The position numbers and the translations under genes were made by a program. From Octopus sinensis (lineage: Eukaryota): DNA of 21,983 nucleotides. The notes beneath the pieces are model-generated. The model did no database searches. It saw only the letters and a program-made list of their open reading frames with translations, and was not told the DNA's origin. This document shows positions 16,122-16,195 of the stretch, in pieces; the stretch's first letter is position 1, and every line of letters begins with the position of its first letter. The DNA is taken from contig NW_021823627.1 of assembly GCF_006345805.1 (NCBI RefSeq), positions 1 through 21,983 on the forward strand, given 5' to 3'.

Positions 16122-16195
16122 TAGCCAGATAACCGAAGAGATGGTGTTGTGGATTTCCACTTCGGCATCTGAAACTCAGAGTTTTATCTTGACTA
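16122..16195 (+). ncRNA. Type I hammerhead-like ribozyme with variant core in the PLE 3' repeat
   Basis: Stem I UAGCC-AGAUAA / UUAUCU-UGACUA; core CCGAAGA at 16133-16139; stem II GAUG/CAUC around a GUGG-AUUU-CCAC hairpin; U-GAAA; stem III CUC-A-GAG; GUU triplet at 16181-16183. Confidence 0.58.

What the first reader, a model, noticed from the sequence alone, without database searches (positions are those of the whole stretch)
16122..16195. Non-canonical hammerhead (CCGAAGA core) with a built-in anti-core sequence in the Naiad 3' repeat
Seen: a complete type I hammerhead topology with a long stem I, a quasi-palindromic stem III (CUCAGAG) and a GUU site. The core reads CCGAAGA instead of CUGANGA, and there is an extra U before GAAA. 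The extended stem II contains CUUCGG (16160-16165), the exact complement of core CCGAAG (16133-16138), so a mutually exclusive fold could sequester the catalytic core. Both inverted copies carry the same variant. Known: PLE pLTRs usually carry minimal hammerheads that often act as dimers. Inference: this may be a conformationally gated variant ribozyme rather than decay.
Basis: partly seen in the sequence, partly recalled or inferred. Interest (0 to 1): 0.72.

Follow-up and report, generated by a model that had tools for sequence, protein, structure and literature searches.

The report
Variant hammerhead in young Penelope lineage
This is the self-cutting "hammerhead" RNA motif at the tail of a Penelope-type jumping gene, whose thousands of youngest copies share one changed core letter that likely slows cutting without ending it; the proposed built-in off-switch arose later and is predicted to form too rarely to act as a switch.

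Summary
The sequence features are as described, but the element is not a Naiad and the gating idea does not hold. It is a Hydra-clade Penelope-like element (RT, then C-terminal GIY-YIG). The two inverted copies come from one insertion. CCGAAGA (U4C) is the state of the young master lineage (2,696 exact matches); older subfamilies carry canonical CUGANGA. U4C came first (311 copies have it without CUUCGG), and CUUCGG followed by one C>T change. The anti-core helix is predicted in about 2% of molecules. A second repeat family in this genome (2,594 matches) also has U4C and no anti-core. After U4C, none of 34 other core and proximal-stem positions changed against 14 of 85 flanking ones, so the fold seems still maintained. 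Best reading: a weakened, probably dimer-acting hammerhead that is tolerated, not a switch; slow decay is the main rival. Cleavage is untested and genomic 5' ends gave no clear footprint. Natural U4C is known from a viroid. The scan noted this family before on other DNA (e1-10346284) and the second family too (e1-9541343).

The parts
16122..16195 (+). Type I minimal hammerhead motif with U4C core in the 3' repeat (pLTR) of a Hydra-clade Penelope-like element
   Evidence: ancestral canonical versions
16133..16139 (+). Core C3-C4-G5-A6-A7-G8-A9; C16134 is the derived U4C change
16140..16169 (+). Stem II: 4 invariant proximal pairs, an eroded middle, an inner hairpin; holds CUUCGG at 16160-16165
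16170..16170 (+). Unmatched pyrimidine before GAAA (C in older subfamilies, U in the youngest; U is predicted to pair with A9)
16171..16183 (+). GAAA, palindromic stem III with 1-nt centre (dimer type), GUU; predicted cut after 16183
   Evidence: same layout in Craig 2021 File S2
14497..16289 (+). 5'-truncated forward copy: RT 3' half in shifted frames, linker, GIY-YIG endonuclease, 3' UTR, hammerhead, 63-nt tail
15057..15932 (+). Open frame with RT thumb, CxCX5C linker and C-terminal GIY-YIG endonuclease with CxxC and CxH motifs
   Evidence: Pfam GIY-YIG E 0.015, below the curated cut-off
13453..14501 (-). Inverted 5'-truncated copy from the same insertion; its hammerhead lies at 13484-13557
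16227..16289 (+). Tail present at one end only; in full-length copies it runs directly into the element's 5' end
16290..16330 (.). (TA)n target repeat; a second run flanks the other end at about 13417-13459

Best explanation
The motif is the minimal type I hammerhead of a Hydra-clade Penelope-like retrotransposon, in which the young master lineage fixed a U4C core change that likely lowers but does not abolish cutting, and which likely still acts as a dimer through its palindromic stem III. Shown: clade, canonical ancestry, order of changes, copy numbers, unchanged core and proximal stems after U4C. Inferred: slow dimer cleavage of tandem transcripts to unit length, enough for the element's cycle. 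CUUCGG is a by-product of drift in the stem II internal loop, not a gate. A possible reason U4C was accepted (prediction only): just before it, the stem III centre changed to A, which made the canonical CUGA fully complementary to the stem III strand; U4C breaks that mispairing.
For: Older subfamilies have CUGAUGA, CUGACGA or CUGAAGA cores and compensatory stem I changes. 2,696 exact U4C matches; the 30 top-scoring copies fetched are identical over the motif. From the first U4C subfamily to the youngest: 0 of 34 other core and proximal-stem positions changed against 14 of 85 flank positions (Fisher p 0.006; 15 of 148 with the tail, p 0.039). A second family with a different stem II has U4C in 2,594 matches (control 13) against 350 with another letter, stems kept. 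Natural U4C with reduced in vitro but sufficient in vivo activity is reported for a viroid (PMC3088659). PLE hammerheads are weak and work as dimers (PMC4209133). Predicted core-to-stem III mispairing: 0.52-0.74 in older groups, 0.91 just before U4C, 0.14 just after.
Against: No cleavage data. All single changes in CUGA gave low activity in a mutational scan of another hammerhead (PMC9901934). After U4C the lineage also lost two distal pairs and changed 16170 to U, which is predicted to tie up A9 (P 0.8-0.9) and drops the core-free fold from about 0.15 to 0.01 in a dimer mimic. 17 of 23 full-length young insertions with an upstream repeat read through the cut site. 5' junctions show only a mild hump over 16183-16185, no step at 16184. 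The conserved positions could be kept for a promoter or RT-binding role; the neighbouring tail is conserved as well. Subfamily bins and majority sequences are my own and some groups are small (6-14 copies).
Confidence: 0.5

Rival explanations
1. Decaying relic: U4C all but killed the ribozyme, the lineage no longer needs it, and the motif is eroding while the element keeps spreading from uncut tandem transcripts.
For: Stepwise loss of stem II middle pairs, U4C, a distal stem I pair and the 16170 change; low activity of CUGA mutants; most full-length young copies read through the site; Craig 2021 notes that Naiads spread well without canonical hammerheads.
Against: 0 of 34 further changes in core and proximal stems against about 16% in flanks; U4C kept with intact stems across several sub-variants of a second family; stem II erosion began under the canonical core.
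Confidence: 0.33
2. Gated variant: CUUCGG sequesters the core and acts as a conformational switch that times cleavage.
For: Perfect 6-bp complement, mutually exclusive with stem II; in 56 of 65 U4C copies against 1 of 33 canonical ones among the first 100 listed (counted by hand); both later than and strengthened by U4C; up to 13% occupancy for a moment during transcription; 2.9% chance for the exact complement.
Against: About 2% at equilibrium, 2.4-2.7 kcal/mol worse than the stem II fold, nil in longer contexts; one transition from an ancestral 5-of-6 match; 311 copies spread with U4C and without it; single origin, so no true covariation; absent from the second U4C family.
Confidence: 0.06
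3. The fold is kept for a non-catalytic job (promoter, RT recognition or template-switch signal in the pLTR), so cutting is irrelevant while shape and letters persist.
For: The adjacent tail is as conserved; 5' truncations and fold-backs are common at the 5' edge of the motif, 17 of 85 old and 12 of 62 young copies at 16116-16132.
Against: The conserved set is exactly the catalytic core and junction stems, while loop, N7 and distal pairs vary freely as in working hammerheads.
Confidence: 0.11

Closest known systems
Hammerheads of Hydra-clade PLEs (Craig et al. 2021, PMC8557442; seen: passages, section 11, File S1 rows, File S2 table)
   Same: Type I, near the 3' end, palindromic ACUC-N-GAGU stem III (as in Hydra-2_aMil, Hydra-1_aJap, Penelope-3_HM), (TA)n targets, same protein motifs; U before GAA outside the drawn stem II in 14 of 26 Hydra rows.
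   Different: All 26 Hydra rows have CUGA (their descriptor asked for it); here C4. Their extra U faces an extra U on the 5' side; here it is unmatched. Stem II is much longer here. Hydra-1_oBim is another family (different stems).
Minimal PLE hammerheads (Cervera and De la Pena 2014, PMC4209133; seen: parts 1-2 of 4)
   Same: In pLTRs, short palindromic stem III, long stem II, predicted dimer action, low activity.
   Different: Core variants in the parts read are U3-A8 and an extra letter after A9; no U4C.
Natural U4C viroid hammerhead (Ambros and Flores 1998, known only through PMC3088659 passages; the name peach latent mosaic viroid is recalled)
   Same: Same core change, reduced in vitro activity yet viable.
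   Different: A viroid variant, not fixed in a retrotransposon lineage with thousands of copies.
Naiad PLEs (PMC8557442)
   Same: Penelope-like, inverted and tandem insertions, (TA)n targets.
   Different: Naiads have an N-terminal endonuclease, DKA and CCHH motifs and lack canonical hammerheads; this element has none of these traits.

Membership tests
Naiad PLE | GIY-YIG endonuclease N-terminal to RT | tested here: not met
   RT motifs precede the endonuclease in the window and in full-length copy L110
Naiad PLE | DKG motif modified to DKA; length 3.4-4.4 kb | tested here: not met
   DKT; unit 2,590 bp
Hydra-clade PLE | C-terminal GIY-YIG without CCHH; CxCX5C linker; CxxC and CxH around the conserved E and N | tested here: met
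   Motifs read in the translation of 15057-15932 against section 11 of PMC8557442
Hydra-clade PLE | RWK and DKT motifs, length under 3 kb, (TA)n target | tested here: met
   L110 translation, flanks
Hydra-clade PLE | Placement in the Hydra clade on an RT tree | not tested
   No tree against the published proteins was built
Hydra-clade PLE | Canonical hammerhead near the 3' end | tested here: inconclusive
   Met by older subfamilies; U4C in the window's subfamily
Type I hammerhead ribozyme | Stems I, II, III around the junction, open at stem I, UH site | tested here: met
   compensatory stem I changes among older subfamilies
Type I hammerhead ribozyme | Invariant core CUGANGA / GAAA | tested here: not met
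   10 of 11 positions canonical; U4 is C; one extra letter before G12
Type I hammerhead ribozyme | Self-cleavage after H17 | not testable with these tools
   No raw RNA reads offered; junction mapping inconclusive
Conformationally gated ribozyme | Two alternative folds of similar stability | tested here: not met
   Anti-core fold about 2%, 2.4-2.7 kcal/mol worse (nearest-neighbour prediction)
Conformationally gated ribozyme | Repeated covariation of core and anti-core | tested here: not met
   One origin, sequential changes; second U4C family without complement

The most novel reading that the evidence does not exclude
U4C is a selected, convergent retuning of PLE hammerheads: two families in one genome adopted it independently because it frees the core from pairing with the palindromic stem III strand, the true monomer-off / dimer-on gate, at some cost in chemical rate. 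The subfamily series is then a dated record of a ribozyme trading speed for folding.
Probability: 0.15. Interest if true: 0.62.

Novelty: new variant of a known kind. Interest (0 to 1): 0.38.

Why it matters
What hammerheads do for Penelope-like elements is open (PMC8557442 says so). Here one lineage went from a canonical to a U4C core and then produced its largest young burst, with every intermediate preserved in the genome, and a second family carries the same change. Assaying the series would show directly whether these elements need fast cutting, slow cutting or none. It also shows that searches demanding CUGANGA miss thousands of family-level variants. The switch idea, which gave the finding its first appeal, is not supported.

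Tried and rejected
Rfam scans found no hammerhead, only microsatellite noise. RNA evidence: no RNA holder listed on record and no raw reads; contigs laid from 8 of 24 listed runs gave no molecule ends; one guessed-RNA contig spans the site, strand and origin unknown, so it was not used. Cleavage footprint: 5' starts at 16184-16185 in 3 of 85 old and 5 of 62 young arms, the latter from 3 events; genome-wide junctions 5 of 17 at 16177, 9 of 15 at 16181, 18 of the first 30 of 38 at 16184, 17 of the first 30 of 31 at 16185, 9 of 26 at 16187; counting only A/C-preceded junctions 1, 9, 9, 15 for 16182-16185. No step at the cut site, and many junctions use stem I or T-run microhomology, so inconclusive. 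CpG decay as the source of the T-core copies: rejected, opposite-strand decay gives only 110 matches against 828 and most T copies carry older-subfamily letters. Module swap between families suggested by L261: rejected, it is a truncated stub beside another element. A first pattern for the second U4C family missed it; a wider one found it. A second hammerhead core elsewhere in the full unit: none by a simple pattern. Literature: searches showed no report of U4C in a PLE; Lunse et al. 2017 and Ambros and Flores 1998 are not held and were not read, and the supplements of Cervera 2014 and Perreault 2011 were not opened, so a prior report cannot be excluded.

Full report
Observation. The letters and coordinates are right: stem I 16122-16132 with 16184-16195, core CCGAAGA at 16133-16139, four proximal stem II pairs with an extension, U16170, GAAA, a palindromic stem III with a one-letter centre, and GUU with the predicted cut after 16183. 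CUUCGG at 16160-16165 complements 16133-16138. Rfam does not see the motif and its fold alone is not significant (z -1.39). The second copy (13484-13557, minus strand) is identical but belongs to an inverted arm of the same insertion, 7 differences in 1,049 nt.

The element. It is not a Naiad. RT comes first and the GIY-YIG endonuclease last. A full-length copy (L110) gives a 2,590-bp unit with RWK and DKT; the window shows the CxCX5C linker, CxxC and CxH, and (TA)n flanks. These are the Hydra-clade traits listed in PMC8557442 section 11. File S2 of that paper shows the same palindromic stem III in several Hydra families; all 26 Hydra rows have CUGA, as the descriptor demanded. No tree was built.

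Is U4C the consensus? A 19-letter probe gives 2,696 exact matches with C4 and 828 with another letter, T in 96 of the first 100 listed. Opposite-strand CpG decay gives only 110, and most T copies carry other diagnostic letters, so they are mostly older subfamilies. Further probes reached still older groups with CUGAUGA and CUGACGA cores and a longer perfect stem II. Binned copies show a single succession, with median divergence of about 7-9% in the canonical groups, about 3% in the first U4C groups (one small group 8%) and 0% in the youngest (the probes bias these values). The order is: stem II middle erodes; stem III centre G to A; U4C; G16147 to T; C16161 to T (creates CUUCGG); C16170 to T; two stem I changes. 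The extra pyrimidine before GAAA is therefore ancestral (3,794 matches with C).

The anti-core. Among the first 100 of 3,143 matches to a wide probe, CUUCGG is in 56 of 65 C4 copies and 1 of 33 U4 copies (counted by hand), but this is descent: 311 exact copies have U4C without it. The ancestor already matched 5 of 6. Shuffles give the exact complement in 2.9% and any core-overlapping 6-mer in 26%. Predicted occupancy is 1.4-2% in 74- and 127-nt contexts, nil in longer ones, 2.4-2.7 kcal/mol behind the stem II fold, with a brief 13% during transcription. Stronger competitors exist: A9 pairs with U16170 (0.8-0.9), and in the canonical ancestors the core pairs with the stem III strand (0.52-0.74, rising to 0.91 once the centre became A, falling to 0.14 after U4C). 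These are nearest-neighbour predictions only.

Kept or decaying? From the first U4C group to the youngest, none of the 34 other core and proximal-stem positions changed, against 14 of 85 flank positions (p 0.006) or 15 of 148 with the conserved tail (p 0.039); the last canonical group shares the same 34 letters, so the result does not hang on the U4C probes. Against this, distal pairs were lost and the U16170 change lowers the predicted core-free fold from about 0.15 to 0.01. It has no complement to its core and no DNA similarity to this family's 3' end in the 20 loci checked, apart from one locus that also holds a copy of this family. Its stem I and III resemble Hydra-2_aMil; I did not link it to a protein. 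Since U4C arose inside the first lineage, the two origins are independent.

Cleavage footprints. 17 of 23 independent full-length young insertions that have an upstream repeat extend across the cut site; one starts within a letter of it (28 of 30 loci gave a result, arrays and pairs merged, two had no upstream repeat). That fits uncut transcripts or cut-and-religated circles alike. Copies end at 16226 or 16289 in TA-like microhomology, not at the cut. Junction counts show a mild hump at 16183-16185 and no step. RNA runs gave nothing usable.

Literature. PMC4209133 (parts 1-2 of 4): PLE hammerheads are minimal, weak and dimer-acting. PMC6765202 (passages) agrees. PMC3088659 (passages and section 8): a natural U4C lowers activity in vitro yet keeps a viroid infective. 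PMC9901934 (passages): CUGA single mutants are low in a type III hammerhead. The 2026 retrozyme preprint (part 1 of 5) added nothing on cores. Seven searches showed no U4C in a PLE; two key papers were not held.

Verdict. Real motif, wrong clade, unsupported switch. Most likely a weakened but maintained dimer hammerhead (0.5); decay (0.33), a non-catalytic role (0.11) and gating (0.06) are the rivals. It is a new variant of a known kind whose value is the dated ancestor-to-descendant series for testing what PLE hammerheads do. The scan had already reported this family from another piece of the genome as an eroding hammerhead (e1-10346284); my rate test and the second family move the reading somewhat toward maintained function.

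Noticed in passing
window 13303-13418: Short fold-back stub between (TA)n runs that carries another Hydra-type hammerhead with a canonical CUGAAGA core (13368-13374) and GAAAC at 13386-13390; a different family.
   Followed up: no
window about 16483-16657: Another long inverted repeat (arms of about 80 nt) next to a (TA)n run; looks like a fold-back stub of some repeat.
   Followed up: no
L613-L632 (G000, 2,594 matches): Second repeat family with a U4C hammerhead, GGAA loop, stem I like Hydra-2_aMil, no anti-core.
   Followed up: partly
L231-L260: A further abundant hammerhead family with canonical CUGAUGA core and a GGAAA-containing stem II loop.
   Followed up: no
window 16116-16132 in family copies: 5' truncations and fold-backs are frequent at the 5' strand of stem I, at a short palindrome (17 of 85 old, 12 of 62 young arms).
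   Followed up: partly
(e.g. L453, L493, L564): Side branches of the young group with a 3-letter deletion or other changes in the middle of stem II, still with U4C and CUUCGG.
   Followed up: no
The look-up of sequencing runs: The young 266-nt stretch is held at 0.76-1.00 of its words by runs with eight different organism labels; only four of the other labels were laid, one giving the near-whole stretch in each of two runs.
   Followed up: partly
window 2078-2844, 7474-7968, 9116-9391, 20661-20942: Fragments of other retroelements: LINE-type RT end, two restriction-like endonuclease ends, and an LTR-type RT piece (labels by recalled motifs).
   Followed up: no
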